Positions 3,649 through 14,910 of a stretch of 15,002 bases of DNA are shown in pieces (position 1 is the first letter of the stretch; each line of letters starts with the position of its first letter). A model generated the notes under the pieces. It was not told where the DNA came from. It searched no databases and worked only from the letters and a program-made list of their open reading frames with translations. The stretch is taken from IMG/VR virus record IMGVR_UViG_2579779049_000022, one strand, 5' to 3'. Source of the stretch: a virus (lineage: Duplodnaviria; Heunggongvirae; Uroviricota; Caudoviricetes). The position numbers were made by a program, and so were the translations under genes.

Positions 3649-3683
3649 TTTTTTCTCCTGATATTTTAATGTCGGTGGGGCTG

Positions 3684-3878
3684 TTATACGGTTGGTGAGG
3701 TGTCAGCTTCTTCTACCAGCTTTTCCAGTTCATCCAGCTTTCGGGAAAGAATTTCACCAAACAGATGAAGTTCTGCATCTGCTGTAATCGGGATTGGAAC
3801 AAATCGTATTCCACTTCTGGCAAGTTGATTTGCGATTTCCAGACACTGCCTTAATTCAACTGGTGATGCCTTTGTCAA
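3684..3878 (-). CDS. Hypothetical acidic small protein; start uncertain (TTG 3878, or ATG 3980 with 125 bp overlap of the methyltransferase gene)
   Basis: Protein-like ORF (...VELRQCLEIANQLARSGIRFVPIPITADAELHLFGEILSRKLDELEKLVEEADTSPTV) in a different frame from the MT-A70 3' end. No convincing SD at either candidate start. Confidence 0.35.
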   Translation of the reverse strand: MTKASPVELRQCLEIANQLARSGIRFVPIPITADAELHLFGEILSRKLDELEKLVEEADTSPTV

Positions 3879-4482
3879 CGTCGTTTTTTCGCTTATTGGT
3901 TTTCTCCAGAAATTTAACAATACCCGGAACCATCTCAATGGATGGTGTGCCGCATTGGTTACCCCATACATCAAATCCATGCGAGGTGTGGCGGGCGAAC
4001 AGTTCTATCCGGGGAACATCGCCAAGAAGTTGCACAAGTTTTTCTCGAGCCATATCCGGCTTGCGGGAGTGATCAAGGCGCGGTGCAGTGAATGACTGGA
4101 TTATTCCGGCGTTAATGCGTTCGGGCAGATTTCCTTTCACTGCAAAAAGGCAGTCTTCGCTGTTAGCGCGAGTGGTGCTACCCATACCCATGACCAGCTT
4201 GTCGGTCTGTCTTTTCCCGCATTTGTTCCAGGTTAATCCTTTCATCGTCACCAGACGAAAGCCCCACGCTTCTACAACCTTCAATGCTTCAAGTGGTTGT
4301 GTAGGCACCCACCACATAGACAACAGGCAATTATCGGCTGCCAGTTCCCATACCGGGAGGCGGCAGATATCCAGAAGACTCATGACCGGATATTTAAAAC
4401 TTGCACCGCGTTGACCATCGGTTGCTTTGTCGCGGAATGTCCAGGGGGGATCTGCGTAAATGAGGGTGTATTTTTTCGTCAT
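3856..4482 (-). CDS. MT-A70 family DNA N6-adenine methyltransferase (phage Dam-like)
   Basis: N-terminal LIYADPPW (DPPW catalytic motif) and C-terminal FDVWGNQ, characteristic of the MT-A70 family. ATGA start/stop overlap with the upstream gene at 4479-4482. Confidence 0.85.
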   Translation of the reverse strand: MTKKYTLIYADPPWTFRDKATDGQRGASFKYPVMSLLDICRLPVWELAADNCLLSMWWVPTQPLEALKVVEAWGFRLVTMKGLTWNKCGKRQTDKLVMGMGSTTRANSEDCLFAVKGNLPERINAGIIQSFTAPRLDHSRKPDMAREKLVQLLGDVPRIELFARHTSHGFDVWGNQCGTPSIEMVPGIVKFLEKTNKRKNDVDKGITS

Positions 4483-4910
4483 AGCGCGTTTTCAAACTCA
4501 TCAATGTAAAGTCCTGCTTTAATCAGTCGGCGACGGCGTTCGGCCTTTTGCACGTATTCCTCGCGACAGTTTTTTGCTGCGTGTTCACGGCTTCTGCGAC
4601 TGAATGGAGGAACGGCATTGCGTGAGCGAGGTGTGTCACGACGAGGATTTGATTCGAGGGAGAAAAAGCGATCAACGATTCCGGTGTCTGTGGTGAATGG
4701 TTCTGAAGCCTTTATTTTCACAACCTTACTGCCCTTTGTCAGGCCGCGAGCTACCTTGTTGAACTCGCAAAGTGAAACACCAAATTTCTCTGCTATTTCA
4801 CTGCCAGTAACAGGACGACCACGAGACTGAATCATCCAGGTGACGCGTTCTTTTAACCCACGGAAGGCACCGGGCCTTCCAGAACGCCTGTAGAAAGCGA
4901 TCTGTTTCAA
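4479..4910 (-). CDS. Hypothetical basic protein, possible DNA-binding (TTG start)
   Basis: GGAGA RBS 7 nt upstream of TTG 4910. Segment RPVTGSEIAEKFGVSLCEFNKVARGL is HTH-like. Arg-rich C-terminus. Stop overlaps the methyltransferase start. Confidence 0.5.
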   Translation of the reverse strand: MKQIAFYRRSGRPGAFRGLKERVTWMIQSRGRPVTGSEIAEKFGVSLCEFNKVARGLTKGSKVVKIKASEPFTTDTGIVDRFFSLESNPRRDTPRSRNAVPPFSRRSREHAAKNCREEYVQKAERRRRLIKAGLYIDEFENAL

Positions 4911-4924
4911 ATTTTTGTCTCCAG

Positions 4925-4952
4925 ATATGAAAACCCCGACGGGATGTCGGGG
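4925..4952 (-). terminator. Rho-independent terminator candidate downstream of the antirepressor-like gene
   Basis: Hairpin CCCCGAC-n5-GTCGGGG (4934-4952) followed on the minus strand by UUUUC. Confidence 0.5.
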
Positions 4953-4965
4953 ATGGTAGGGGAAG

Positions 4966-5604
4966 TTACAGGCTTAACGAGAAGCCTTTTCGGGAATTTC
5001 GATCTGACAATCTTGAAATATCCTGTAGCGTGCGGCGCATTTCTTCCGTCAGATGCTTGAAGGCGTTAAATTCAGCGACAGCGGCGTCAACGTTATAGCC
5101 TTTGCTGTGTAGCTCATTGAGGATGCGCATAGTTGGGCTTGGCATGTCGAAGAGCACAGAAACGTCCAGGTTAAGAGTTTTTCGATCAACATAGCTCATC
5201 ATGGAGTAGGGGTGGTGCTCTGAAAACCACGATAGAGGGTAGTTGATGTTCATTGGTGCAGGTAAAAGGCTCTGGCGAAGTTTCTTTTCGCACTCGATGA
5301 AGTATCGGCGGATCTGGCGGCCTTTTTCGTTACGCTCAACCATCGCCAGTTCTTTGGCTGTGTCGAGAGTTAGGTGGTAGTCCTTGCTACGGCGATCACC
5401 TCCTCGCCCTTTGGTTTGCCCATTTTGGCAAATCAAAATATAGTCCTGGCTTTCAACGAATCCATATTCAGCAATGCGTTCTTTAACCCAGTGCGCGAAC
5501 ATTCTGCCCACACCAAGAAAAGAGTGTAGATCACGAGCGTTAACTAGAAGAATTGTTTCGTTGTCGATAGTGCCGTTGAATACGGGGATGAGTTGACTGG
5601 TCAT
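4966..5604 (-). CDS. Phage antirepressor-like protein (AntA/Bro-N-type N-terminal domain)
   Basis: Strong RBS AAGGAGG 5 nt upstream of ATG 5604 (the track ORF starts 10 codons earlier without an RBS). N-terminal NARDLHSFLGVGRMFAHWVKERIAEYGFVESQDY resembles the antirepressor/Bro-N family. Confidence 0.65.
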   Translation of the reverse strand: MTSQLIPVFNGTIDNETILLVNARDLHSFLGVGRMFAHWVKERIAEYGFVESQDYILICQNGQTKGRGGDRRSKDYHLTLDTAKELAMVERNEKGRQIRRYFIECEKKLRQSLLPAPMNINYPLSWFSEHHPYSMMSYVDRKTLNLDVSVLFDMPSPTMRILNELHSKGYNVDAAVAEFNAFKHLTEEMRRTLQDISRLSDRNSRKGFSLSL

Positions 5605-5633
5605 GATGACCTCCTTTGAAGTTTTAGTTAGCA

Positions 5634-5656
5634 ATCACCAGTTAGTGGCTGGTGAT
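5634..5656. promoter_or_regulatory. Palindrome ATCACCAG-N7-CTGGTGAT in the 5' region of the antirepressor-like gene (candidate operator)
   Basis: Perfect 8-bp inverted repeat read directly. It lies between a TTGACA hexamer (minus strand, 5661-5666) and the gene's RBS. Confidence 0.3.
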
Positions 5657-5959
5657 CGGGTGTCAACTAGAGCCTTCAAAGATGCTCCGGGCATATTCCC
5701 CTTGCGGGTATTGTATTACGCCTCTCCACCCGACCTTTGTACGGATGTGACTATGCCAAATTGCAGGCATAAAAAAGCCGCAAAGCTATCGGGTGCGGAT
5801 GACCGCTTTGAAGTTCTAGTGCGGTCAGTATGCGATAGCTCTGGCGGATTTGTCAAATCATGTAGGCCTTATCTTGCTGTAAGCCGCGCCATTCGGGCTT
5901 TTCCCCAGATTTGGGGGAAACTATCTGCGAAGTATTCACCTTTGACGGCAAGTTGCAGG

Positions 5960-6856
5960 TTAGCCACGGTTAACCTCCTGCGGCGGTTCTGGTAGCGGCA
6001 TCCAGTGTGTTACCTGCTCAACACCATTGCCCGGCTTAATCGTTGCTTCTCCTCGCCGAAAGGTGCTTCCGGTATAGCGTGCGGAGCATATTAGCGGCTC
6101 AACCAGATCACTATCGAAATTCACCGAAATAAGTACGTTCTGATTCTTTTTCGGCATTCGCTCACTACAGCTTATCCAACTATCCGGAGTTACCGGATAG
6201 TTGCCCGATAGTGCATTCTGCTCCAGTGATGCTTTTACAAACCACGCTGCCTGAACTATAACGCCATGAATCCAGCGCAAATCAGCATCGCGATCTTTCT
6301 TTTTCATCTTTTCGCCACTTAAGGCCTTGCTTATGTGGCTGCGTACCAGGTCTTCATGTAATTCCTTCGCCTCCTCAATGGTGAAACCACCAGGCAGAAG
6401 AGCCGGAGTTACCGGAGAGCTGGTTGACGCTTCCGGGATTTTTCGAAAATTATTGGTTGACGAATCTTTATTTTCCCGAAAGTTTCCGGACTGAAGCATG
6501 GCTTCGCGGCAATCGTTCCAGCCTGTAGCGTATGCAGCCGCTTTGCTGCTGCCTTCAACTGGCGCATCCTGCCAATACATTTCTTCCGGCACTATCGGCG
6601 CTGGAGGGGCGGCAAATAGATATCCGCCAAAGTCAGGAAGCTCTCTAATGGCCTGTACGAATTTTTGTTTGCCTACGTCAACCCCTAATGGGTAATGAGC
6701 TATAATCTTTGCCACCGGCTCTGCTTCCAGCGATGCCAGCGCAATCCGTGCCAGCTCTTCCGCTTCTTCTGCTGGAAGCACAACGTTGCTACCCGGTCCG
6801 TATGTTTCGCGCCAATGCTGGATTGTCAGCAGTCGCTCTTTGGTAAAAGTGGTCAT
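5960..6856 (-). CDS. DUF551-domain phage protein
   Basis: C-terminal WISCSERMP...HWMPLPEPP matches the recalled DUF551 signature. RBS AAGGTGA upstream of the ATG at 6856. Confidence 0.7.
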   Translation of the reverse strand: MTTFTKERLLTIQHWRETYGPGSNVVLPAEEAEELARIALASLEAEPVAKIIAHYPLGVDVGKQKFVQAIRELPDFGGYLFAAPPAPIVPEEMYWQDAPVEGSSKAAAYATGWNDCREAMLQSGNFRENKDSSTNNFRKIPEASTSSPVTPALLPGGFTIEEAKELHEDLVRSHISKALSGEKMKKKDRDADLRWIHGVIVQAAWFVKASLEQNALSGNYPVTPDSWISCSERMPKKNQNVLISVNFDSDLVEPLICSARYTGSTFRRGEATIKPGNGVEQVTHWMPLPEPPQEVNRG

Positions 6857-6858
6857 AG

Positions 6859-7050
6859 CTATTTCACCTTAATCTCAACATTTCGCAGCTTTAGCTCTAC
6901 TGGCAGGTCTGACTTTCCTGTTAATGCTAATGCGAGATTTTCTGGAGTAGTGAGAACAGTTATTGTTTTCCCCCTCGCCAGACGAATAATCATGTGTATC
7001 TCGCTATCGTCACATGCTCCTGGTCGAACAATTGAGATTTGTCCGTTCAT
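6859..7050 (-). CDS. Small hypothetical protein (63 aa), translationally coupled
   Basis: ATG at 7048-7050 lies 1 nt after the TGA stop of the upstream gene, with AAGGAG 6 nt upstream. The longer track ORF would need a start inside the upstream gene. Confidence 0.5.
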   Translation of the reverse strand: MNGQISIVRPGACDDSEIHMIIRLARGKTITVLTTPENLALALTGKSDLPVELKLRNVEIKVK

Positions 7051-7051
7051 C

Positions 7052-7459
7052 TCACTCTCCTTTGATGCGAATGCCAGTAGCGCGGATTGCATCGATGACT
7101 TCAGAAACTTTGTATGCCATTACCGTTTGGTAATCATCGTGAAAATCTGTTCGATGAAGCATGCTGCTACGTTCCGGGAGCAGTATTTCCCGCGCTTCCA
7201 GTTCTGCAATGCGCTTTTTTGCTGCTTCCAGTTCATCCAGTAATTCCAGCACGGTAGCCGGATTAGCCTTGGCAACAAAATCCCGGACTGGCTTACAATC
7301 AATCTCCGCAATGGGTTGATACGATGTGTAGCCATGCTGTCTTGTATAACTACCGTGACGAATAACGAAAAAATCACCATTTATTTTTTTAGCCTGCCAC
7401 TTATCTTCACCGGCTTTCTCTGCCGCTTCACGCAGTGCCTGATAGTCAATCTTGCTCAC
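7052..7459 (-). CDS. ead/Ea22-like family prophage protein (paralogue 1; GTG start)
   Basis: Coiled-coil motif ANPATVLELLDELEAAKKRIAELEAREILLP and C-terminal AIRATGIRIKGE. AGGAGG 6 nt upstream of GTG 7457-7459, which overlaps the upstream stop (GTGA). Paralogous to 9308-9769. Confidence 0.6.
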   Translation of the reverse strand: MSKIDYQALREAAEKAGEDKWQAKKINGDFFVIRHGSYTRQHGYTSYQPIAEIDCKPVRDFVAKANPATVLELLDELEAAKKRIAELEAREILLPERSSMLHRTDFHDDYQTVMAYKVSEVIDAIRATGIRIKGE

Positions 7460-7773
7460 TGGTTGCCTCCTTTGCGAAGCCGTTCCGCCCATTCTTCAAG
7501 GGATTTCTCTGCATATTCACCGGACAGGCCATCAATCGGATGCGATTCATTAGCTAACTCTTCTTTTGCTGACAGAATCATGCGCGTAACGTCGAAAACT
7601 TCACGTAAAGACTTATTGATAAATCCGTGGTTGAAAGCAGCAGCAAGACGGCTTGCGGTATAGTTAATCCCCTCGTTGCGAGCCTCCGCACGAATTTCAG
7701 CCAGAAAAGCATCGGTGGCTGGAATTTGCGGCATCCCTCCATCTGTTGCGCAGATATACGCATCAGATAGCTC
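7456..7773 (-). pseudogene. 3' portion of a prophage gene whose 5' end was removed by the IS insertion at 7774
   Basis: Frame is open upstream of the first ATG (7734) right up to the IS junction at 7773/7774. The Met at 7734 has an SD too close to be functional. Confidence 0.5.
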
Positions 7774-8103
7774 TGAACCGCCCCGGAAATCCTGGAGACT
7801 AAACTCCCTGAGAAAGAGGTAAACAGGATGACTAAAAATACTCGTTTTTCCCCCGAAGTCCGTCAGCGGGCGATTCGTATGGTTCTGGAAAGTCAGGATG
7901 AATATGACTCACAGTGGGCGGCAATTTGTTCCATTGCCCCAAAGATTGGCTGTACGCCGGAGACTCTGCGTGTCTGGGTTCGCCAGCATGAGCGGGATAC
8001 CGGGGGCGGTGATGGTGGGCTCACCAGCGCTGAACGTCAGCGTCTGAAAGAGCTGGAACGTGAAAATCGTGAACTGCGCCGCAGTAACGATATCCTTCGC
8101 CTT
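7774..8103 (+). mobile_element. Truncated IS3-family (IS629/IS1203-like) element, left end only
   Basis: Left end TGAACCGCCCCGGAAATCCTGGAGACTAAACTCCCTGAGAAAGAGGTAAACAGG plus orfA, identical to the inverted copy at 1-291. OrfA homology ends after ...RRSNDILR at ~8100 and there is no orfB, so the element is internally deleted. Confidence 0.75.
7828..8103 (+). pseudogene. IS3-family transposase OrfA, truncated at the 3' end
   Basis: Product [23 protein letters not shown]...[10 protein letters not shown] then diverges (LPFVHHG) into flanking prophage sequence. Confidence 0.7.
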
Positions 8104-8185
8104 CCATTTGTTCACCACGGGTAAGCCCGTTTTCAAGCGGATTTTTAATGAACAATTCAATACGTTCTTTGGTAATAGTGGTCAT
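8104..8185 (-). pseudogene. 5' fragment (27 codons) of a prophage gene truncated by the IS; N-terminus resembles the DUF551 gene
   Basis: ATG at 8183-8185 with RBS AAGGAG upstream. Encodes [28 protein letters not shown], compare MTTFTKERLL of 5960-6856. The frame runs into the IS remnant. Confidence 0.5.
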
Positions 8186-8195
8186 GTGTTACTCC

Positions 8196-8459
8196 TTAAC
8201 CCGCAGTGCTTTCAACTGATGAGGGGAACAAAATCTTTTCATCAAACCCTGCATTCATATCATGAACAGCAACACACCAATCCATCGACGAACGATTATC
8301 AAGAGCCTCCATGATTTCATCCATGCGGCGTAGGTCATACAGGTAAATGCTTTTATCGCCAATGGTGTAAAAGCCAATTTTTTTCGGTGATGGACAGCGA
8401 TCAAGAACTTCCTGTAATTCGTTCAACCATGCCCGTTCTTTTTTTGTCAAAGTTGCCAT
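8196..8459 (-). CDS. Hypothetical prophage protein (87 aa; start trimmed to MATLTKKERAWLNELQ)
   Basis: RBS AAGGAAA upstream of ATG 8457-8459. The upstream part of the track ORF lacks a start signal. Confidence 0.5.
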   Translation of the reverse strand: MATLTKKERAWLNELQEVLDRCPSPKKIGFYTIGDKSIYLYDLRRMDEIMEALDNRSSMDWCVAVHDMNAGFDEKILFPSSVESTAG

Positions 8460-8460
8460 A

Positions 8461-8598
8461 TCAGTTTTCCTTATACGGATTAATTTTATTGTGCAGTGTG
8501 TTGAATGACGCCCATACCACGTCGTTATACAATTCAATAACTGGCTCAATTATTTTTCCGATTATCCAGACTAGGATTAACGGGGATATCGGTATCAT
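8461..8598 (-). CDS. Possible small hydrophobic protein (45 aa)
   Basis: ORF MIPISPLILVWIIGKIIEPVIELYNDVVWASFNTLHNKINPYKEN, not in the supplied track. Its TGA stop lies 1 nt before the downstream ATG. No clear SD. Confidence 0.3.
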   Translation of the reverse strand: MIPISPLILVWIIGKIIEPVIELYNDVVWASFNTLHNKINPYKEN

Positions 8599-8710
8599 CA
8601 ACACGATAAACAGAATGAGAAACAGAAATTCTGTTGTTCTACTCTTTCGCGGATATTTTTTCTAAATAATGTGACCATTCATTACCGCCCTTTCGGGCGG
8701 CCTCCTGACA

Positions 8711-8923
8711 TTAATCGTTGTGATAACTCATAGCTTCATTTGCAGCATCAACTGGATCAACCTCCCTCCAGCAATAATTTGGGTCGGCTCCTTCAGGCGT
8801 CCACGGTTCTAATTCATTTTTTGCCGCATTCTCATCGCCAGTAATTTTAAAAATCTGCTCAGAGAATTTTCTTGCCCACTCGTTATATTTTTCCGCATTA
8901 ATGGCTTTCTGTGTATTTAACAT
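8711..8923 (-). CDS. Hypothetical acidic small protein (70 aa)
   Basis: Strong RBS GGAGGTG 5 nt upstream of the ATG. Followed after the stop by a GC hairpin CCGCCC-tttc-GGGCGG (8685-8700). Confidence 0.55.
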   Translation of the reverse strand: MLNTQKAINAEKYNEWARKFSEQIFKITGDENAAKNELEPWTPEGADPNYCWREVDPVDAANEAMSYHND

Positions 8924-8973
8924 AAATACACCTCCAGTTAAGGATTAGATTTTATTTACAGCGCTAAATTTAT

Positions 8974-9330
8974 TTATTCAGTTCTGGATTTTGTCACCCT
9001 GCGTATCCGCGCTTTCGCGTTACGCTCAATCTGAATTAACTTTTCTATATTTTTCCGCCTTTCCTGTTCCTCCTGGCGCAATAGCTTTACATCATCTGCC
9101 AGCCTAGTTTCTCTTTTCGCCACAGAGAGCATCCAGTCAAATGGCTCCACAACTGCACCGCAGATTTTACAGCGGACCTGACGCTCTTTTTCGTCAACCC
9201 GGACAGAGGCGTGATGACAATATGGTCTTTCCGATGGCTCATAAAGAAAATTAACCTGATTACGAGGGTCATCCTCTTTTACCGGAAATAAAACGATATT
9301 GCTTAACTCATCTTCTGGTTTTATTTCCAT
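8974..9330 (-). CDS. Zinc-ribbon-containing hypothetical protein
   Basis: AAGGAG RBS upstream. Cys/His cluster PYCHHASVRVDEKERQVRCKICGAVVEPFDW, then a basic coiled-coil-like C-terminus. Confidence 0.55.
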   Translation of the reverse strand: MEIKPEDELSNIVLFPVKEDDPRNQVNFLYEPSERPYCHHASVRVDEKERQVRCKICGAVVEPFDWMLSVAKRETRLADDVKLLRQEEQERRKNIEKLIQIERNAKARIRRVTKSRTE

Positions 9331-9769
9331 GCTCCTCTCCTTTGATGCGAATGCCAGCGACGCGTAATGCGTGTTCTAGGTCAATCAGGTAAAGCCAACT
9401 GCCATTTTCTTTAGGTATCATGACATGTCGCTCATCTGCATTTATCGGGTGTCCATATCGAAGGTCGTAGCGAGTCGGTAATTGAACTTCCCGCGCATCC
9501 AGTTCAGCAATACGCTTGCTCCCATCAGAGATAACGCCTTCGTAATACTCACGCTGCTCGTTGAGTTGTGATTTTGCTTCTTCCAGTCCATCCAGCAAAC
9601 CAGCGATAATATCCGCTTCCCGATGACGGATATGACGCTTAAACGCAGCAAGAGCCGCATCACAATCCCGTTCAGCATTTGGGCTGTCCGGGGTAGCCTG
9701 ATACCACGCCAGCGTCGACTGATAGTTTTGTGCTGCCTCACGAAGCGCCTCATAGTTAACCTCTCTCAT
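9308..9769 (-). CDS. ead/Ea22-like family prophage protein (paralogue 2, C-terminally extended by loss of the stop codon)
   Basis: Shares YEALREAA, LLDxLEEAK, RIAELxAREVxLP and AxRxAGIRIKGE with 7052-7459. The junction sequence CTCCTTTGATGCGAATGCCAG repeats at 7055-7075 and 9336-9356. Here the equivalent stop is GAG, so the ORF runs 24 nt into the next gene. Confidence 0.6.
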   Translation of the reverse strand: MREVNYEALREAAQNYQSTLAWYQATPDSPNAERDCDAALAAFKRHIRHREADIIAGLLDGLEEAKSQLNEQREYYEGVISDGSKRIAELDAREVQLPTRYDLRYGHPINADERHVMIPKENGSWLYLIDLEHALRVAGIRIKGEEHGNKTRR

Positions 9770-10062
9770 TGAGCCACCTCCTGATAAATCACCGCATGCC
9801 CCAGTCTCTCCGCCAGTGCCAGCTCTGCCTTAGCGCCCGCTGACCGCTGCCAGCCATTCAGCATGTAAATCGCATCCACACAACGAATCATTGCCATGCA
9901 AATATCCATGTAGTGCGGCTGTGTCAGCCCGTCCGGAAGTACTGCCGGGTTTAAGACGGTATGCCCTTCCCGTTTCAGTTCCTCTTCCACCTTGTGAAAT
10001 GCCTCACGGTTGAAATTTTCATATCCCGTCATTGGACCGGCAATATAAACTCTCACCCTCAC
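9766..10062 (-). CDS. DUF4406-like protein (nucleoside 2-deoxyribosyltransferase-like fold)
   Basis: N-terminal MRVRVYIAGPMTGYENFNREAF (YIAGPM motif) recalled as the DUF4406 signature. GTG start overlaps the upstream stop (GTGA); AGGAGGTGA RBS. ATGA overlap with the downstream gene. Confidence 0.65.
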   Translation of the reverse strand: MRVRVYIAGPMTGYENFNREAFHKVEEELKREGHTVLNPAVLPDGLTQPHYMDICMAMIRCVDAIYMLNGWQRSAGAKAELALAERLGHAVIYQEVAQ

Positions 10063-10481
10063 TCCATCACCTCCTGAAAGTTTCCCCGATAGAACGCCAG
10101 CACACGCTGCATAACTTCGCTCCTCCTGCTCTCACGACAAATTATGTTCTGGTGCCTGTCGTAGCGGCGTATTTCGCCGTCTGGTAACGACCAGATAAGG
10201 TCCGGATCAACCACTGCAGGTTTCTTCAGCTTTGCCCTTGAGAGCTTTTTACGGGTATTTTGCCAGTCCTTACGCGCCTGTTCAGACGGGAATAACCCGT
10301 AACCAGAGTTGTATACATCGCCACTGGCAACCAGCTCTCTGGCCAGAACGCTCATCAGATATCTTGTTGCCCCAGTTTTAGCTTCCAGTTGTCGTAACGT
10401 CTCGCGCCCACTCTGGCGTACGAGTTCAAGAACCTGCCCTTTAATTTTTTCCCGCTCTTCTTGTGTAAAAACTTTTGCCAC
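10059..10481 (-). CDS. Hypothetical protein directly downstream of the replication gene (possible replication accessory/DNA-binding protein)
   Basis: GTG start with AGGAGGG RBS. N-terminal region LELVRQSGRETLRQLEAKTGATRYLMSVLARELVASG is wHTH-like. Function not recognised. Confidence 0.5.
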   Translation of the reverse strand: MAKVFTQEEREKIKGQVLELVRQSGRETLRQLEAKTGATRYLMSVLARELVASGDVYNSGYGLFPSEQARKDWQNTRKKLSRAKLKKPAVVDPDLIWSLPDGEIRRYDRHQNIICRESRRSEVMQRVLAFYRGNFQEVME

Positions 10482-10521
10482 AAGCCCTCCTGAAAATTAC
10501 CTCATGACCAGAAATTAACAC

Positions 10522-11592
10522 TTACCCCCTGAAGCCCGGCGGAATTTCGTTATCCGGTTCAGAAATATGATTCACACAACGCTGGTTGTTCGTGCCGCTT
10601 ACCGGGAGCAACCAGGGGTTCTCAAAATTCCGGTCCGGTCCAAAAAACGTCGTCGCTCGCTGAACAAATTCCGTTCCCGTTTTCCCGGTAGCCGCCAAGT
10701 ATCTTGCGTAACGCCTCACGCCATCCAGCATGGCCTCTGGTGGCACCCCCTCGCGTAATCTGGCCTTCCAGGCACTGAAAGCGGATTTCTTCGGGTTTGC
10801 CCCAGCACGCAACGGGTACTCCCGCCAGACCTGTTCGAACACATCCGGATAATCCACTCGTCCCACAGACTGACCGGTGTTTTCCGGGACTACCCGATCG
10901 GCTTCCCGCTGAATGGCGGAATCGGCTTCAGGCTGCTGCAGTTGGTGTGATTGCTCCGGCCTTGCGGTCATCACCTGCTGCACAGCGCCCGAATCGGCTT
11001 TCAGCGCATACGCTGAATCGGCTTCCGGTGTCGTGCCTGCTGGCTGACCAGGATTGACGGTCTGAACATCCCCTGCCTGGTTCGTGGCGTTTTTTACGCC
11101 ATGGACCATAGTGTTTTGATCTTCTTGATCTGTATCTTTATCTGTATCTTTATCTGTCGTGACTCGTCGTGACATGTGCGTGACATTTCGTGACGCGCCG
11201 TGACAATCGCCATTTTGTTCCCGCTTTCTTTCCCTCTCTCGCTGCGCCCTCTTGCGCTCTGCAGGAGATTTTGCGGTTTGCGAAATATTGCCGTTGTCCT
11301 CTTTAAGCACCTGGCGTTTTTCCCATCCAGTGATTAAATCACCATCAAGTACCCGCCCCTGCATCGTCTGCAAAATTGAATCAATTACCTCTTCTGTCAC
11401 GTCGAGCGCACTTGCCAAATCTTCTGTCGTGACATCAATGTGACCTCGCGTGACATTTCGTGACGCGCTCACCAGGAGGTGGATATACACTGCCATCACT
11501 GTTGCAATTGGCTGCCCTGACACCCTGGCAATTGTTCGCCACTTAGGGTCATTTGGCATGTCATGCCATAATCTGAGCCAGGCGTTAGCCAT
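10522..11592 (-). CDS. Phage replication initiator / replisome-organiser-like protein with internal origin-like iterons
   Basis: Position immediately after the Cro-like and YdaT-like genes. Architecture is N-domain, low-complexity linker (DKDTDKDTD, Q/P/T-rich), C-domain (DYPDVFEQVWREYPLRAGANPKKSAFSAWKARL...TFFGPDRNFENPW). Iteron-like CGTGAC repeats and an AT-rich tandem repeat lie inside the coding sequence, as in the lambda O gene. Confidence 0.65.
   Translation of the reverse strand: MANAWLRLWHDMPNDPKWRTIARVSGQPIATVMAVYIHLLVSASRNVTRGHIDVTTEDLASALDVTEEVIDSILQTMQGRVLDGDLITGWEKRQVLKEDNGNISQTAKSPAERKRAQRERERKREQNGDCHGASRNVTHMSRRVTTDKDTDKDTDQEDQNTMVHGVKNATNQAGDVQTVNPGQPAGTTPEADSAYALKADSGAVQQVMTARPEQSHQLQQPEADSAIQREADRVVPENTGQSVGRVDYPDVFEQVWREYPLRAGANPKKSAFSAWKARLREGVPPEAMLDGVRRYARYLAATGKTGTEFVQRATTFFGPDRNFENPWLLPVSGTNNQRCVNHISEPDNEIPPGFRG
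11128..11157. repeat. 12-bp tandem repeat (TGTATCTTTATC x ~2.5), AT-rich, adjacent to iterons
   Basis: Direct reading. Encodes DKDTDKDTD in the minus-strand replication gene. Confidence 0.85.
11158..11204. repeat. Iteron-like array A: five CGTGAC hexamers at 10-11 bp spacing
   Basis: CGTGAC starts at 11158, 11168, 11179, 11189 and 11199, a helical-turn periodicity. Overlaps the 21-bp direct repeat GCGTGACATTTCGTGACGCGC (11178-11198). Confidence 0.7.
11396..11468. repeat. Iteron-like array B: inverted GTCACG (11396) then CGTGAC/TGTGAC hexamers at 11428, 11439, 11449, 11459
   Basis: Contains a second exact copy of GCGTGACATTTCGTGACGCGC (11448-11468), 270 bp from the first. Confidence 0.65.
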
Positions 11593-11663
11593 ACTCACCT
11601 CTTCTGATACCGAATCTTTTTACTCACGAGTTGCCGGAAGCGATTCGATACGGCTATTGTCAG

Positions 11664-12089
11664 TCAATGTACTGCCACAGCATTTCCTGCCGGGCCACCA
11701 CGGTTCATCTGATTGAAACCGGCGATTGCCACTGCGACAAAATCATCAGCGTCTCTCACCAGTCGCTCCCGCGTCTCCACCAGCTCCCGAAAATAAGCTG
11801 AACTGTGGCTGCGCATTCTGGCCACCAGCAAAGGTGGCATTGCCTTTTCGATCGCTGGTAACAACGCCTGAATTTTTTCAACTGCATCAGGGGTGTCTTT
11901 CTCTACCCAGCGGAAAATTTTCTGGGTATTGCGAGCCAGGGCTTCCGGATGGCTGTCGTCATACAGTTCAGGAAACGTCATACCCAACTCAAAATAAGCC
12001 TGGGTTATTCCAGCTGCTGGAACTTTTTCGCCATCAGGACGCGCCCAGGCATTCATCGCCATGCGGATGTGTTCATGCTTGATTTTCAT
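11664..12089 (-). CDS. ydaT: YdaT-like prophage protein (CII-position regulator)
   Basis: N-terminal MKIKHEHI... matches recalled Rac YdaT. Sits directly downstream of the Cro-like gene with 17 bp overlap; AGGAG RBS 8 nt upstream of the ATG. Confidence 0.6.
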   Translation of the reverse strand: MKIKHEHIRMAMNAWARPDGEKVPAAGITQAYFELGMTFPELYDDSHPEALARNTQKIFRWVEKDTPDAVEKIQALLPAIEKAMPPLLVARMRSHSSAYFRELVETRERLVRDADDFVAVAIAGFNQMNRGGPAGNAVAVH

Positions 12090-12354
12090 GAATCAAGCTC
12101 CTAGTAAGTGGTTGTGTTAACGTTTTGGTATCTTCCAGCTCGGGCCAAATATTCATCCAATCAAAAGGCCTTAGTTGCTGACGTGTAACTTCACCATTAC
12201 TGGCTCGCTCAATAAGGACACATAACGATGCCCCTAACATTTGACCTTTACTCAATGCCTTTCTTAGATAACCGATGCTAGTACCACACTCACATGCAAA
12301 CATACGCTGTTCATCTGACGAAAGAGAATTGAGAAATATTCTTAATTCTTCCAT
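12073..12354 (-). CDS. ydaS: YdaS-like Cro-type HTH regulator (first gene of the rightward-equivalent early operon)
   Basis: Strong RBS AAGGAG 5 nt upstream of the ATG. Motif ...CGTSIGYLRKAL...NGEVTRQQLRP resembles the YdaS/Cro-like HTH family. Divergent from the repressor gene. Confidence 0.65.
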   Translation of the reverse strand: MEELRIFLNSLSSDEQRMFACECGTSIGYLRKALSKGQMLGASLCVLIERASNGEVTRQQLRPFDWMNIWPELEDTKTLTQPLTRSLIHENQA

Positions 12355-12453
12355 AGCTACTCCTTAGTAAACACAGCAAGAATACCCACAGGTAAACAAA
12401 AGTCAATACCCTTGGGTTGTTTACCTTGCGGTAATCGCATCTATTATTTACCT
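12355..12453. promoter_or_regulatory. Immunity-switch intergenic region: divergent promoters with operator-like inverted repeats
   Basis: 15-bp inverted repeat CCCACAGGTAAACAA (12385-12399) / TTGTTTACCTTGCGG (12417-12431), 13/15 matches. Central near-palindrome ACCCTTGGGT (12406-12415). Minus-strand promoter candidate TTGACT(12401-12406)-16 bp-TATTCT(12379-12384). TATTAT hexamer at 12442-12447, 6 bp upstream of the repressor ATG. Confidence 0.6.
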
Positions 12454-12873
12454 ATGGACAAATATGAATTTAGACGACAACAACTCATCAAAATTCGTGA
12501 TGAGAAATGCGATGGTAAAGCGGTTAACGTGGCCAGAAAGATCGGTCGCGAGCCTTCTTATGTATCAAGAATGTTGTACCCAGAGGGGAAAAAAGGAAAA
12601 AAACGGATCGCTGATGATATGGTGGAGATTATAGAAGAGTCCTTTGGGTTACCCCGGGGATGGATGGATGGTATCGTTTCATCATCAACGAACACAGCCT
12701 CCAATTATGAAACAAGGGTTCTAACGCCACGACAACGTATTTTTTTAGATCTCTTAGACGAACTGCCAGAAAGTGAAGCGGATAACTTATTAAAAACTCT
12801 TGAAGAGAAAAAACAGTATTACAATATGATCTACGAAGAAATCCGTAAAAAGAAAGCACAAAACGCATCATAA
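12454..12873 (+). CDS. Prophage repressor, DicA/RacR-like HTH protein (no S24 peptidase domain)
   Basis: HTH segment AVNVARKIGREPSYVSRML. C-terminal ...ELPESEADNLLKTLEEKK resembles recalled DicA ...ALPESEQDTQLAEM. Divergent from the Cro-like gene. ATG at 12454 preferred over upstream TTG; no SD, so possibly leaderless. Confidence 0.65.
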   Translation: MDKYEFRRQQLIKIRDEKCDGKAVNVARKIGREPSYVSRMLYPEGKKGKKRIADDMVEIIEESFGLPRGWMDGIVSSSTNTASNYETRVLTPRQRIFLDLLDELPESEADNLLKTLEEKKQYYNMIYEEIRKKKAQNAS

Positions 12874-12911: not shown

Positions 12912-12956
12912 AAATTACCCATGGGTATTTACTTTTTAAATACCCATGGGTATCCT
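12912..12956. promoter_or_regulatory. Twin perfect palindromes TACCCATGGGTA (12916-12927, 12941-12952) forming one extended inverted repeat; candidate OL-type operators and/or terminator hairpin
   Basis: Read directly. The sites are separated by TTTACTTTTTAAA and followed by T-rich TCCTTCCTTTC. A TTTACT...TATCCT promoter-like pair overlaps them. A related half-site lies in the 12355-12453 switch region. Confidence 0.55.
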
Positions 12957-13302: not shown

Positions 13303-13941
13303 ATGGAATTTAAAGATTTACCTCCTTCAATCCAGGAGATTGCAGCACACACACTTCGTCATCGTCTGAACGAACTTGAATTGGAATCGGTAACGAAAAA
13401 AGACACTGATAATATGGCTCGTAATGTGCGCGATGCGTTTACCGGATTGTATTTCTGTGCGTCTATAAATAAACACGACTCAGAGAGTGTGGCAAATAAA
13501 ATTGCAGAAACGACAGCGCAAAACATCAATACGAAACCAACGGAAGAAGAAATTGATCAGTTTGCTCATGATGCTGGTTTAAAAAACAAGAAAGAAAAAT
13601 CGCCATATGCGGGGAACATGTTTGTTTATGACAATCTCATCAGAATTCGTGGCGAAATTCCGGCGGAATACCTGGCAAGAGTCCATCAGGCATTGCTTAA
13701 AAATTTGGAAACAGAATTATTTGATGGCAACACTAACGGTTTCTTCATGGTATCAGGCCTTGATAAAGACTGGGATGCAGAAAAACGCTGGAATGTTGCT
13801 ACATGGTTATTCAGTAACAGAGCCGCTGCACTGGAAGCTTCGGCATGTATTTGCGGCCTGTTCTTAACAGACCACAAATATAATCTGGATGTGTACAGTT
13901 ATATTTACGCTGAACACGGTCCACTCTGGATTGACTGGTAA
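13303..13941 (+). CDS. Hypothetical protein (212 aa), AT-rich cargo gene in the repressor-side operon
   Basis: RBS GAGGT 5 nt upstream of ATG 13303. Codons are A/T-rich compared with neighbours. No recognisable motif. Confidence 0.55.
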   Translation: MEFKDLPPSIQEIAAHTLRHRLNELELESVTKKDTDNMARNVRDAFTGLYFCASINKHDSESVANKIAETTAQNINTKPTEEEIDQFAHDAGLKNKKEKSPYAGNMFVYDNLIRIRGEIPAEYLARVHQALLKNLETELFDGNTNGFFMVSGLDKDWDAEKRWNVATWLFSNRAAALEASACICGLFLTDHKYNLDVYSYIYAEHGPLWIDW

Positions 13942-14151
13942 TTATAAGGAAACACCAGCAGGGCCGCGGCGACCAACAGAACGATTAAAATCAATAATGC
14001 CATTATAAAGGACATTATTTAATTTATCGTCGAATGCTGATTCTGTGAGCCTCAACTCTGAATGAGTTTTTAATAACCCTGATTGCCTGAGTTGATTTAC
14101 CAGGCATTCAATCTGTTTTTCAATAAGCGGATTTCTTTTTTTGTTTGGCAT
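13942..14151 (-). CDS. Hypothetical small protein (69 aa), convergent partner of 13303-13941
   Basis: Strong RBS GGAGGA 4-5 nt upstream of ATG 14149-14151. Lys-rich N-terminus MPNKKRNPLIEKQIECLVNQLRQSG. Its stop abuts the stop of the plus-strand gene. Confidence 0.45.
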   Translation of the reverse strand: MPNKKRNPLIEKQIECLVNQLRQSGLLKTHSELRLTESAFDDKLNNVLYNGIIDFNRSVGRRGPAGVSL

Positions 14152-14488
14152 TTTATCCTCCATTGAGGTTCTGGGTTAAAAATGGAGACCAACACGCTGT
14201 CACGTGTGGTCGTGCGCCGGACACGGATAAGAATCCGGTACTGACAGTTTACTGAAAGGATATTTCCCTGAAAAGTCAGGGCATAACGCGAAAGCGTACG
14301 GCGAAGCTCTTTCCCTTAGAAGGCTTGTCGTTAGATTTCTTCGAACGTGCGCTTCCGGTTGTGGCACTCCGCGAAATGGCGCGGCGGTAAGTATGGCGGG
14401 GTTATTCCTTCCCCGTTGAGGACACCGGGTTGTCAGGTTGACCATACGCTTAAGTGACAACCCCGCTGCAACGCCCTCTGTTATCAAT

Positions 14489-14541
14489 TTTCTGGTGACG
14501 TTTGGCGGTATCAGTTTTACTCCGTGGCTGCTCTGCCGCCC
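14489..14541 (+). ncRNA. dicF: DicF small regulatory RNA (ftsZ-targeting sRNA of Qin-type prophages) with intrinsic terminator
   Basis: TTTCTGGTGACGTTTGGCGGTATCAGTTTTACTCCGTGGCTGCTCTGCCGCCC followed by TTTTT matches recalled E. coli DicF (53 nt) with about one substitution. Lies upstream of dicB as in Qin. Confidence 0.8.
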
Positions 14542-14721
14542 TTTTTAAAGTGAATTTTGTGATGCGGTGAATGCGGCTAAGCGCACGCGGAACAGTTAAA
14601 ACAAGCGGTCTTTTACGGGCGTAACGGGAATGCTCTGTATCCGGCGTTAATTGTTAACTGGTTAACGTCACCTGGAGGCACCAGGCACTGCATCACAAAA
14701 TTCATTGTTGAGGACGCGATA

Positions 14722-14910
14722 ATGGAAACGTTATTACCAAACGTTAATACGTCTGAAGGTTGTTTTGAAATTGGTGTCACTATCAGTAACCCTGTATTTA
14801 CTGAAGATGCCATTAACAAGAGAAAACACGAACGGGAGCTATTAAATAAAATATGCATTCTTTCAATGCTGGCCCGTTTACGTCCGATACAAAAAGGATG
14901 CTGGCAATGA
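14722..14910 (+). CDS. dicB: Cell-division inhibitor DicB
   Basis: 62 aa product METLLPNVNTSEGCFEIGVTISNPVFTEDAINKRKHERELLNKICILSMLARLRPIQKGCWQ closely matches recalled DicB. RBS GAGGA 7 nt upstream. Confidence 0.85.
   Translation: METLLPNVNTSEGCFEIGVTISNPVFTEDAINKRKHERELLNKICILSMLARLRPIQKGCWQ

What the first reader, a model, noticed from the sequence alone, without database searches (positions are those of the whole stretch)
14152..14488. ORF-poor, GC-rich, highly structured region immediately upstream of DicF
About 340 bp with no credible ORF on either strand: the minus-strand 95-aa ORF has a Pro/Arg-rich, random-looking product, and the plus strand has only a 20-codon Arg-rich ORF (METNTLSRVVVRRTRIRIRY, 14182-14244). 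The region contains several nested stem-loops, e.g. CGGGG-n9-CCCCG (14397-14415) and GGTTGTCA...TGACAACC (14428-14461). It could be the processed precursor leader of DicF, a degenerate ydfB/ydfC region, or a separate structured RNA.
Basis: partly seen in the sequence, partly recalled or inferred. Interest (0 to 1): 0.5.

Follow-up and report, generated by a model that had tools for sequence, protein, structure and literature searches.

The report
Conserved structured RNA leader before DicF
The stretch upstream of the DicF small RNA is not a broken gene but a non-coding leader whose last ~115 bases form a conserved, pseudoknotted RNA domain that sits just before a transcription terminator in phages lacking the N antiterminator, so it may be a new RNA device that lets polymerase read through that terminator.

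Summary
Window 14152-14488 has no conserved ORF, is more GC-rich than its flanks, and contains both named hairpins. Positions 14211-14488 match the untranslated ydfC-dicF spacer of K-12 Qin, so this is not a decayed ydfB/ydfC gene.

The leader has two separable modules. Module A (14211-14363) has predicted hairpins but no covariation. Module B (14358-14472) recurs without A in other lambdoid phages and in P1/P7, just downstream of the C1-controlled ban promoter. B folds as a junction (P0, P1, P2a-P2, P3) with a loop-loop pseudoknot. Compensatory changes support P2, P2a, P3 and the pseudoknot. No Rfam 15 family matches it.

An intrinsic terminator follows B in 156 of 157 copies, while the seed and hairpin of that DicF-type module vary. 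B and the N antiterminator did not co-occur: N lay upstream in 0 of 126 B-bearing loci and in 23 of 26 B-less loci.

Best reading, at about 0.4 confidence and unproven: B is a cis-acting RNA that promotes read-through of its terminator, analogous to HK022 put but not homologous. RNase E releases DicF from the spacer. The rival readings are an sRNA-precursor domain, a riboswitch-like attenuator, or a trans-acting RNA.

The parts
14152..14210 (.). Lineage-specific junction, not part of the conserved leader. It carries the SD (rc of 14156-14161) for the divergent minus-strand CDS 13942-14151.
   Evidence: Alignment with K-12 loses homology upstream of about 14210. RefSeq annotates the CDS WP_001133034.1 at the equivalent position in O111 strain 11128.
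14211..14363 (+). Leader module A, conserved with the K-12 Qin ydfC-dicF spacer. It also occurs without B in N-encoding phages.
   Evidence: 19 variants below 96% identity were aligned (A9).
14216..14239 (+). Module A hairpin a1 (GCCGGA...UCCGGU) with a variable loop.
   Evidence: RNAalifold consensus. The stem is invariant or wobble only, with no compensatory change.
14266..14281 (+). Module A hairpin a2, CCCUGAAAAGUCAGGG. It looks like boxB, but this is a resemblance only.
   Evidence: RNAalifold consensus. No compensatory change.
14282..14363 (+). Module A long irregular helix (14282-14305 with 14340-14363) with a hypervariable tip. Its 3' strand overlaps the 5' strand of P0 in module B.
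   Evidence: 24 predicted pairs, 0 with double changes. The arms are conserved and the tip is variable.
14358..14472 (+). Module B, a conserved ~115-nt structured RNA domain (P0, P1, P2a-P2, P3 and a pseudoknot).
   Evidence: Covariance model R1 scores 146.9 bits here. 83 distinct copies were aligned (A5). B is found without A in cdtI, 2H10, Ayreon, Stx2c phages, F1055, P1 and P7.
14358..14364 (+). P0 5' strand GUUGUGG. It pairs with 14466-14472.
   Evidence: 86% of cells paired. Many copies have perfect GUUGUGG/CCACAAC, and variation is one-sided (UA/UG, GC/GU). P0 is absent in four variants and unclear in P1.
14466..14472 (+). P0 3' strand CUGCAAC.
   Evidence: present in the minimum-free-energy fold.
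14369..14384 (+). P1 hairpin CCGCG-AAAUGG-CGCGG.
   Evidence: 96.6% paired, but no compensatory change.
14386..14388 (+). P2a 5' strand GGU. It pairs with 14424-14426 (ACC).
   Evidence: the pair U14388-A14424 is UA in 76 copies, CG in 5, UG in 1 and unpaired in 1.
14424..14426 (+). P2a 3' strand ACC.
14391..14396 (+). Pseudoknot 5' strand GUAUGG. It pairs with CCAUAC in the P3 loop.
   Evidence: 99% paired. The pair 14392-14446 is UA in 76 copies, UG in 4 and CG in 3, with no mismatch.
14442..14447 (+). Pseudoknot 3' strand CCAUAC, inside the nearly invariant 19-nt P3 loop (14436-14454).
14397..14415 (+). The loop is U/C-rich.
   Evidence: Three pairs show double changes. At least 10 different stem sequences keep a hairpin at this position.
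14427..14463 (+).
   Evidence: Three pairs show double changes, for example U-A to C-G in 8 copies. G.U wobbles fit only the plus strand.
14473..14489 (+). Single-stranded A/U-rich spacer. The DicF 5' end (the reported RNase E-dependent cut) falls at 14489/14490.
   Evidence: Rfam gives the DicF start. RNase E dependence comes from Faubladier 1990 as cited in PMC5069750 and PMC9438474. It was not tested here.
14490..14541 (+). DicF sRNA.
   Evidence: RF00039, 75 bits, E = 2.4e-15.
14504..14546 (+). DicF intrinsic terminator (GGCGG...CCGCC plus a U run at 14542-14546).
   Evidence: A terminator follows B in 156 of 157 copies.
14553..14699 (+). dicF-dicB spacer with a sub-threshold STnc100 match (context).
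   Evidence: 34.5 bits against a gathering score of 47.
14722..14910 (+). dicB, the first protein gene downstream of the terminator (context).
   Evidence: Pfam DicB, 127 bits.

Best explanation
Window 14211-14488 is the non-coding leader of the prophage early-left (dicB-type) operon and is transcribed on the plus strand together with DicF.

Its 3' part, module B (14358-14472), folds as it is transcribed into a compact domain. This domain has a closing helix P0, a small hairpin P1, a P2a-P2 arm and a P3 arm. A 6-bp pseudoknot joins the internal loop of the P2 arm to the invariant 19-nt loop of P3.

I propose that B acts in cis on the elongating host RNA polymerase, or on a host elongation or termination factor, to suppress termination at the intrinsic terminator that always follows it. 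B would then set the split between short terminated transcripts (the DicF-type sRNA) and read-through into dicB/kil, exo, xis and int, or into the tRNA-ban operon in P1. In this role it would stand in for the N/nut system in N-less phages, as HK022 put RNA does, without being related to put. RNase E cleavage in the A/U-rich spacer at 14489/14490 releases DicF from the leader.

What is shown: the region is non-coding; it is orthologous to the K-12 spacer; it is modular; the helices and pseudoknot have comparative support; B is linked to a terminator; B and N are mutually exclusive.

What is inferred: the antitermination activity and its target.
For: (1) Same element as the K-12 untranslated spacer.

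(2) B is a discrete cassette. It is shared by lambdoid phages and P1/P7 whose flanks are unrelated. It is precisely absent in phiSTEC1589 and PhiR5_2.

(3) Structure. 96.1% of cells are paired, 8 pairs show double changes in 33 cells, 0 of 500 shuffles reach the observed pairing or covariation score, and slid controls give 35-50% pairing. At least 10 different P2 stems keep the hairpin. Wobble pairs fit only the plus strand. The loops and junctions are more conserved than the stems.

(4) Position. B lies in the early operon leader. In P1 it starts about 40 nt downstream of the C1-controlled Pban. In lambdoid phages it lies downstream of the repressor gene.

(5) A hairpin plus T-run follows B in 156 of 157 copies, although the seed and hairpin vary. 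It is the only clear intrinsic terminator found in the operon in Tritos and in the P1 ban leader. Everything downstream must therefore pass through it.

(6) B and the terminator fold as independent domains in most variants. Any effect on termination would therefore not come from an alternative hairpin.

(7) N lies within 5 kb upstream in 0 of 126 B-bearing loci and in 23 of 26 B-less loci that carry the same A and sRNA modules. ORFs between the repressor and B match only PHROGs of unknown function.

(8) Published experiment (PMC5069750). Plac placed upstream of ydfA on the chromosome gives strong DicB toxicity but no detectable DicF. A Plac-dicF plasmid gives abundant DicF; I assume, but have not checked, that this plasmid lacks the leader. 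In the native context the terminator therefore seems to be mostly read through, and no other phage function had been induced.

(9) Specialists regard early antitermination in N-less lambdoid phages as unresolved and guess at a put-like RNA (PMC12315714).
Against: No experiment addresses B itself.

B has no sequence or model similarity to put. Model R1 finds nothing in the HK022 put regions at E up to 10.

Only one copy was found per locus (flanks of up to about 10 kb), and none was seen in the cro-side (rightward) operon where that was covered, whereas HK022 has putL and putR.

The 53-nt DicF is reported to arise by termination at this terminator, so read-through is not complete.

The absence of DicF on Northern blots could instead reflect RNase E decay.

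The covariation rests on few independent events, mostly in the P1 and P7 lineages and in the P2 variants. P0 and P1 have no compensatory changes.

The close, constant adjacency of B to a DicF-type module would equally suit a role in sRNA biogenesis.

Phage D6 keeps the P1-type terminator with an unrelated leader.
Confidence: 0.4

Rival explanations
1. B is the 5' domain of a DicF-type sRNA precursor. In this reading it is a folding insulator or processing guide that keeps the seed single-stranded and positions RNase E about 25 nt 3' of P3. It would have no effect on transcription.
For: B is always followed by a seed plus an Hfq-type terminator module, and the seed varies while B stays constant. 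The DicF 5' end is RNase E-dependent. The spacer is A/U-rich and unpaired in most folds. All DicF-bearing phage records that I cross-checked against the B list also carry B (at least 19 of 22).
Against: The same sRNA and terminator types exist naturally without B in N-encoding phages, so the sRNA module does not require B. A 115-nt pseudoknotted junction with invariant loops is far more than known RNase E guide hairpins need. In cdtI-type copies only about 12 nt separate B from the terminator stem. DicF made from a plasmid (which I assume lacks the leader) is abundant.
Confidence: 0.2
2. B is a riboswitch-like or factor-binding sensor (an attenuator). Binding of a metabolite, ion or host protein to the junction would tune termination at the adjacent terminator.
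For: The architecture resembles an aptamer: a closing helix, two arms joined by a loop-loop contact, and invariant junction and loop nucleotides. A terminator lies 12-70 nt downstream, and it is the only one found in the leader.
Against: No conserved pairing mutually exclusive with the terminator was found. B and the terminator fold independently in most variants. The candidate pairings I examined by eye did not covary (terminators GGUGG/CCACC versus an unchanged B). P0 is absent in some copies. There is no link to metabolic genes. The distribution is narrow, limited to phages of Enterobacterales.
Confidence: 0.12
3. B is a stable RNA that acts in trans, for example as a sponge or decoy for a host protein. 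It would be released from the leader by RNase E, or in P1 made as a primary transcript of about 190 nt from Pban to the terminator.
For: In P1, promoter, B and terminator together form a complete small transcription unit. The invariant unpaired nucleotides suit binding to a conserved host partner.
Against: No transcript data are available. The strict placement immediately before a terminator, and the exclusion with N, are not explained. No complementarity to other parts of the window beyond chance was found.
Confidence: 0.12
4. B and A have no specific function. They are GC-rich, structured filler that keeps Rho off a ~570-nt untranslated stretch, and they look conserved because the cassette spread recently by recombination.
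For: Most copies are more than 90% identical. Folding energies are not exceptional. Module A shows no compensatory change.
Against: The P1/P7 copies are only 77-82% identical to the window over the roughly 97-nt aligned core of B, yet their changes in stems are compensatory while the 19-nt loop and junction strands stay invariant. The P2 stem has been rewritten at least 10 times with the hairpin retained. B is gained or lost as a precise unit.
Confidence: 0.1
5. The interval is a frameshifted ydfB/ydfC remnant, or it encodes the 95-aa minus-strand protein.
For: Several phage records annotate minus-strand hypothetical proteins across B. Long stop-free stretches occur on the minus strand.
Against: K-12 has an intact ydfC upstream of the same non-coding sequence. 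The product has no Pfam match. Indels of 1 nt and of other lengths not divisible by three in the P2 loop among near-identical copies break the frame. The substitution pattern preserves base pairs, not codons.
Confidence: 0.02

Closest known systems
ydfC-dicF untranslated spacer of the E. coli K-12 Qin dicBF operon
   Same: It is the same element. Window 14211-14488 aligns with K-12 1649100-1649381 at about 90-100% identity, with B identical apart from 2 bases. [quoted passage not shown]
   Different: The upstream genes differ. This prophage has a DUF1391 gene, a 216-aa gene and a divergent 69-aa CDS in place of ydfA/B/C. No paper or annotation I could reach assigns a structure or function to the spacer.
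The 'dicF-like region' misc_feature of phage P1 (NC_005856, 68791-68892), in the leader of the ban operon
   Same: It overlaps the P1 copy of module B (P3 arm) and its terminator. It occupies the same position, immediately after a repressor-controlled early promoter.
   Different: The P1 similarity is to the sequence upstream of DicF, not to DicF itself. The seed and terminator of the P1 module are unrelated to DicF. The annotation carries no structural or functional claim.
HK022 putL/putR polymerase-utilisation RNAs
   Same: They share the proposed logic: a structured RNA in the early-operon leader of an N-less temperate coliphage, upstream of the first terminator, needing no phage protein (PMC9378689).
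   Different: There is no sequence or covariance-model similarity. put is about 70 nt with two stem-loops and a triplex, whereas B is about 115 nt with a four-way junction and a loop-loop pseudoknot. HK022 has one put in each early operon, and B was found only in the leftward one. Activity of B is unproven.
EAR (eps-associated RNA) of Bacillus, a processive antiterminator RNA
   Same: Both are pseudoknotted RNAs of about 120 nt inside an operon. EAR promotes read-through of downstream intrinsic terminators (from my own knowledge of Irnov and Winkler 2010).
   Different: The host clade is different, and no Rfam match of B to any family was found. The EAR mechanism is itself unknown.
Lambda-type N/nut antitermination
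   Same: It occupies the same place in the early-left operon and does the same job of passing early terminators. N-encoding relatives carry the same module A and DicF-like terminator but lack B.
   Different: N/nut needs the N protein plus boxA/boxB. No N was found upstream of any of the 126 B copies examined.
Transcriptional riboswitch or attenuator leaders
   Same: Both have a conserved multi-helix aptamer-like domain closed by a helix, followed within tens of nucleotides by an intrinsic terminator.
   Different: No conserved antiterminator or anti-antiterminator pairing was found, and no ligand or gene-function association is evident.

Membership tests
DicF sRNA (Rfam RF00039) | A match to the 52-nt DicF covariance model. 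| tested here: not met
   The model matches 14490-14541 only. Nothing in 14152-14488 matches it, even at E up to 10. The interval is adjacent to DicF, not part of the family.
Any curated Rfam 15 family | A covariance-model match at or near the gathering score. | tested here: not met
   In an E-value-mode scan of 13900-14720, the only hits inside the interval were noise: Evf-2_5p at E = 5.7 and mascRNA at E = 8.3.
HK022 put RNA | Sequence and structure homology to putL/putR (about 70 nt, two stem-loops, conserved CGAACGGC...AGGAUGA...CAAUG motifs). | tested here: not met
   putL and putR were located in HK022. Model R1 for B finds nothing there at E up to 10. The motifs are absent from B. Rfam has no put family, so its silence carries no information here.
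HK022 put RNA | Location in an early-operon leader, downstream of a repressor-controlled promoter and upstream of the first terminator, in a phage without N. | tested here: met
   P1: about 40 nt after Pban. Lambdoid phages: downstream of the repressor. Terminator linkage in 156 of 157 copies. No N in 126 loci.
HK022 put RNA | Acts in cis on RNA polymerase (beta' zinc-binding domain) to suppress pausing and termination. | not testable with these tools
   This needs transcription assays and rpoC mutants. There is only indirect support: dicB is expressed and DicF is undetectable from the Plac-driven native operon (PMC5069750).
Transcriptional riboswitch / attenuator | A conserved structured sensor domain with covariation. 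| tested here: met
Transcriptional riboswitch / attenuator | Mutually exclusive terminator and antiterminator pairings that are conserved across members. | tested here: not met
   B and the terminator are independent domains in the minimum-free-energy folds of most variants. The long-range alternative appears only in some classic DicF copies. The candidate pairings I examined by eye do not covary.
Transcriptional riboswitch / attenuator | A specific ligand or factor. | not testable with these tools
   No candidate emerges from the gene context.
ydfB/ydfC coding remnant | Nucleotide or protein homology to ydfB/ydfC, with decay of a formerly open frame. | tested here: not met
   The K-12 ydfC region (L002:2824-3042) does not align convincingly with the window sequence opposite it. 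Homology begins about 60 nt after the ydfC stop codon.
Lambda nut site (boxA + boxB with N) | An N protein encoded in the operon, and boxA/boxB elements. | tested here: not met
   No N was found upstream of B. Hairpin a2 in module A (CCCUGAAAAGUCAGGG) only resembles boxB. No conserved boxA was seen on reading the spacer variants.
Processed (operon- or 3'UTR-derived) sRNA precursor leader | Co-transcribed upstream RNA from which an endonuclease releases the sRNA. | tested here: inconclusive
   Orthology to the K-12 leader was shown, and no promoter-like site lies on the plus strand in 14150-14490. RNase E processing is taken from the literature and was not tested for this copy.

The most novel reading that the evidence does not exclude
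Module B is a previously unrecognised class of phage antiterminator RNA. It would be a pseudoknotted leader domain of about 115 nt that, with no phage protein, makes E. coli RNA polymerase read through the DicF-type terminator. It would serve N-less lambdoid phages (Qin-like, cdtI, 2H10 and Stx2c phages) and the P1 ban operon, and so would control the balance between the DicF sRNA and dicB/kil, recombination and integration genes.
Probability: 0.35. Interest if true: 0.8.

Novelty: new variant of a known kind. Interest (0 to 1): 0.62.

Why it matters
DicF is one of the oldest known bacterial sRNAs and contributes to EHEC virulence control, yet the 280 nt in front of it has been treated as an anonymous untranslated region.

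This work shows that the last ~115 nt form a discrete structured RNA domain with covariation support. The domain is present in about 80% of complete E. coli genomes, often in several copies, and in P1-type phage-plasmids. That gives a concrete, mutable target for asking how the dicBF operon chooses between making DicF and expressing DicB.

If the domain is an antiterminator, it would be a third solution to early antitermination in temperate coliphages, alongside N/nut and put. It would answer the open question of how N-less lambdoid phages express their delayed-early genes. It would also add a small, protein-independent read-through element to the synthetic-biology toolbox.

Whatever its function, the domain merits an Rfam family and correction of spurious ORF calls in phage records.

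Tried and rejected
(1) Rfam. Neither the gathering-score scan nor the E-value scan found a family for the interval.

(2) put homology. HK022 putL and putR were located by aligning putR against the reverse complement of putL, after an inverted-repeat search failed to find them. The shared 9-mer GCGCGGCGG is the only resemblance, and model R1 finds nothing there. Homology rejected.

(3) Long-range helix GCGGCGG/CCGCUGC. Rejected because the 3' side varies (CCACCAC, CCGCCAC) while the 5' side is invariant, which breaks the pairs.

(4) Alternative pairing GCGGGGUU/AACCCCGC. It is present in this copy but, from reading the aligned variants, not conserved in P1 or the P2 variants. Rejected.

(5) Antiterminator pairings between B and the terminator strands. 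These are not conserved (my reading of the variants).

(6) boxA in the spacer. CCUCUGUUAUCAA resembles rrn boxA only in the classic DicF spacer type (my reading of the variants). Rejected.

(7) 5S rRNA or tRNA-like mimicry. No Rfam support.

(8) Own promoter for B. There is no sigma-70-like site on the plus strand in 14150-14490.

(9) Trans complementarity of the B loops to the rest of the window. Only chance-level 8-9-mers were found.

(10) Folding-energy z-scores as evidence. They are not significant for A or B alone.

(11) Papers not held. Faubladier and Bouche 1994, Lobocka 2004 and Murashko and Lin-Chao 2017 could not be read.

(12) Search for more divergent relatives. Two further pattern scans returned only near-identical Enterobacterales copies, so the depth of covariation is limited.

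(13) Phage D6 leader. This is an unrelated sequence in front of the P1-type terminator. It has no Rfam match and occurs only in D6.
Full report
**Observation.** DicF lies at 14490-14541 on the plus strand (Rfam RF00039, 75 bits) and dicB at 14722-14910 (Pfam DicB). It is richer in GC (0.50-0.57) than its flanks (0.37-0.45). Both hairpins are present: 14397-14415 is exact, and the second is really 14427-14435 with 14455-14463. RefSeq annotates nothing between the divergent CDS (13942-14151 in window coordinates) and dicB in an identical copy in E. coli O111 strain 11128. By folding energy the region is only mildly unusual. A+B+DicF gives z = -2.5 on the plus strand against -0.8 on the minus strand, and about -1.4 when either module is folded alone. 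The claim of structure therefore rests on comparison, not on energy.

**Not a decayed ydfB/ydfC gene.** In K-12 Qin, ydfC ends 340 nt before dicF. Window 14211-14488 aligns with that K-12 spacer, and the last ~130 nt are identical apart from 2 bases. Upstream of about 14210 the two prophages are unrelated. Here the upstream genes are a DUF1391 gene, a 216-aa gene (phrog_2151) and a divergent small CDS. [quoted passage not shown] DicF is reported to be released from it by RNase E at its 5' end, and by termination or RNase III at its 3' end (PMC5069750 and PMC9438474). The 95-aa minus-strand ORF has no Pfam match and is broken by 1-nt indels in near-identical copies.

**Distribution and modularity.** The segment 14100-14560 matches 4318 of 5426 complete E. 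coli genomes, with a median of 2 copies and up to 8. A sensitive search of phage records showed that the leader is made of two separable modules.
- Module A (about 14211-14363) occurs without B in phiSTEC1589-Stx1c and PhiR5_2.
- Module B (about 14358-14472) occurs without A in cdtI, Ayreon, 2H10, Stx2c phages, Salmonella phage F1055 and a phage recorded from Actinobacillus.
- B also occurs in P1 and P7. There it starts about 40 nt downstream of the C1-controlled Pban promoter and overlaps the 'dicF-like region' feature of the P1 record.
- P1-type plasmids add 607 records.
- Pattern scans found B in Escherichia, Shigella, Citrobacter, Trabulsiella and Erwinia.

**Structure of module B.** I aligned 26 representatives (A4, A8), built a covariance model (R1) and used it to align 83 distinct copies (A5). 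The supported fold has these elements:
- P0: 14358-14364 with 14466-14472.
- P1: the hairpin 14369-14384.
- P2a: 14386-14388 with 14424-14426.
- P2: the hairpin 14397-14415.
- P3: 14427-14435 with 14455-14463, with a 19-nt loop.
- Pseudoknot: GUAUGG (14391-14396) with CCAUAC (14442-14447), inside the P3 loop.

On A5, 96.1% of cells pair. Eight pairs show changes on both sides, in 33 cells. No shuffle out of 500 reaches the observed pairing or covariation score, and slid controls give 35-50% pairing. By helix:
- P2 has three covarying pairs, and at least ten different stem sequences keep a hairpin at this position.
- P3 has three covarying pairs, including U-A to C-G in eight copies.
- The pseudoknot pair 14392-14446 is UA in 76 copies, UG in 4 and CG in 3, with no mismatch.
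- The P2a pair 14388-14424 is UA in 76 copies, CG in 5 and UG in 1.
- P0 is 86% paired with only one-sided changes, and it is missing in a few variants.
- P1 has no covariation.

The wobble pairs fit only the plus strand. The P3 loop and the junction strands (GGCGCGGCGGUAAG and CACC) are nearly invariant even between P1 and lambdoid copies, which are only 77-82% identical over the aligned core of B. No Rfam 15 family matches.

Limits of this evidence: the diversity is shallow, and the compensatory events are few and concentrated in the P1 and P7 lineages and the P2 variants.

**Module A.** RNAalifold on 19 variants predicts two small hairpins (14216-14239 and 14266-14281). It also predicts a long irregular helix (14282-14305 with 14340-14363) with a hypervariable tip, but none of the 34 predicted pairs shows a compensatory change. 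The 3' strand of this helix overlaps the 5' strand of P0, so the two cannot form together. I treat A as conserved leader sequence with unproven structure.

**Context.** B always lies in the early operon that leaves the repressor gene on the side opposite cro, or just after Pban in P1. In 156 of 157 copies with enough downstream sequence, a GC-rich hairpin plus T-run follows. The spacer ('seed') and the hairpin differ among at least seven types, of which classic DicF is one. All DicF-bearing phage records that I cross-checked also carry B (at least 19 of 22). In phage Tritos and in the P1 ban leader this is the only clear intrinsic terminator found in the operon. All downstream genes (dicB/kil, exo, xis and int, or the tRNAs and ban) therefore depend on passing it. 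Folding B together with its terminator shows two independent domains in most variants, with no conserved antiterminator pairing.

**B and N.** In phiSTEC1589 and PhiR5_2, module A is joined directly (GGTTGTG|AATAACAAC) to a DicF-like seed and terminator. This is the same seed type found behind B in F1055 and L040. Both phages encode the antiterminator N upstream. That junction occurs in 38 IMG/VR loci. tblastn with three N proteins found N within 5 kb upstream in 23 of 26 B-less loci and in 0 of 126 B-bearing loci. No arginine-rich N-like ORF cluster lies upstream of B. ORFs between the repressor and B in Tritos, Evi, Ayreon and this window match only PHROGs of unknown function. This result is confounded by lineage and used a limited set of N queries. 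It still shows two things: the sRNA module does not need B, and B is absent exactly where N is present.

**Published experiments that bear on this.** When Plac replaces the native promoter upstream of ydfA on the K-12 chromosome, induction is highly toxic through DicB, yet DicF is undetectable on Northern blots. A Plac-dicF plasmid, by contrast, gives abundant DicF; I assume, but have not checked, that this plasmid lacks the leader (PMC5069750). In the native context the DicF terminator therefore seems to be mostly read through, without any other phage function having been induced. A 2025 survey notes N-less lambdoid phages, naming lambda_2H10 (one of the B carriers) as the closest relative of its subject's Q protein. 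It guesses at a put-like mechanism for them (PMC12315714). From my own memory, not checked here, P1 bac mutants express ban constitutively in lysogens, which also argues that no lytic phage factor is needed to pass the ban-leader terminator.

**Mechanism.** I commit to B being a cis-acting leader RNA that promotes read-through of the terminator that follows it. It would act on RNA polymerase or on a host factor, not through an alternative hairpin, and RNase E would cut at 14489/14490 to release DicF. My confidence is about 0.4. The rivals, with rough weights:
- sRNA-precursor or insulator domain: 0.2.
- Ligand- or factor-sensing attenuator: 0.12.
- Released trans-acting RNA: 0.12.
- Passive Rho-proof filler: 0.1.
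- Coding remnant: 0.02.

The points against my reading are these. B has no similarity to put. No second copy was seen in the cro-side operon. The 53-nt DicF is reported to arise by termination, so read-through is incomplete. The adjacency to an sRNA module has other possible explanations. Nothing has been tested directly on B.

**Comparison with known systems.**
- The element is the same as the K-12 ydfC-dicF spacer and as part of the P1 'dicF-like region'. Neither carries an assigned structure or function in the annotations and papers I could read.
- It would work like HK022 put or Bacillus EAR, but it fails the homology test for put and matches no Rfam family. Rfam itself lacks put.
- It has the build of a riboswitch but lacks a conserved switching platform.

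I therefore file it as a new variant of a known kind, namely structured cis-regulatory leader RNAs and possibly antiterminator RNAs, and not as a member of any existing family.

**Verdict.**
- The most interesting product is module B, a widespread and previously unmodelled RNA domain. Its tight coupling to a terminator and its exclusion with N make a specific, testable case for a new protein-independent antitermination element.

Noticed in passing
window 14553-14699 (+): The dicF-dicB spacer gives a sub-threshold match to Rfam STnc100 (34.5 bits against a gathering score of 47, E = 1e-5). It is conserved with K-12 and also follows the B-less DicF-like terminator in phiSTEC1589. It may be a second structured leader element in front of dicB/kil.
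   Followed up: partly
window 5646-5735 (-): A full-length sRNA-Xcc1 (RF02221) match at 65.4 bits, above the gathering score. It lies between an AntA-like antirepressor gene (4966-5634) and a DUF551 gene (5960-6856).
   Followed up: no
window 995-2434 and 2661-12354: tRNA-Arg(CCU) (995-1069, minus strand) lies next to a tyrosine integrase gene (1190-2434, plus strand). The cro-side operon (YdaS, YdaT, a replication-like 358-aa gene, Ead/Ea22, DUF551, AntA, MT-A70) runs on the minus strand towards that integrase. This is the reverse of the usual lambdoid layout and suggests a rearranged or composite prophage.
   Followed up: partly
window 12916-12952: A 37-nt inverted repeat (two perfect 16-nt arms, TACCCATGGGTATTTA, around a 5-nt centre) lies right after the repressor-like gene (12412-12873). 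It was scored as a bidirectional terminator-like site and could instead be an operator.
   Followed up: no
L005:2503-2716, L134:4255-4468, L148:4534-4747 (downstream of B): In Salmonella phage F1055 and in Trabulsiella and Erwinia prophages, the terminator after B is a long hairpin. It encloses a Shine-Dalgarno-like AGGAG and a start codon, so translation of a downstream ORF may be coupled to terminator unfolding.
   Followed up: no
L004:2545-3000, L005:2284-2856, L006:2498-2704, L150:4045-4239, L169:4045-4239: Several deposited phage genomes annotate minus-strand 'hypothetical proteins' lying across module B. Given the covariation and the frame-breaking indels, these calls are probably spurious.
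   Followed up: partly
L170:1180-1500 (plasmid pNCYU-25-82-5; same sequence in phage D6): This P1 relative keeps the ban-leader terminator and the downstream sequence, but it has an unrelated GC-rich leader of about 300 nt in place of module B. That leader has no Rfam match. It may be an alternative leader cassette in the same position.
   Followed up: partly
L018:1540-1753, L063:5129-5342, L137:2555-2768: These are natural deletion variants in which the hairpin region of module A (..GUCAGAGCAUAACGCGAAA) is fused directly to the P1 hairpin of B, removing about 75 nt including the 5' strand of P0. The A hairpin ACGCGAAAGCGU and the B hairpin CCGCGAAAUGGCGCGG share the CGCGAAA core. This suggests recombination between them, or an old duplication.
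   Followed up: no
L006 (Actinobacillus phage vB_Apl-pPE4, PP818812.1): This phage, recorded from Actinobacillus pleuropneumoniae, carries an E. coli-type DicA/YdaS/YdaT immunity region, module B and a DicF-like terminator at 85% identity. The host assignment or the purity of the sample may deserve a check.
   Followed up: no
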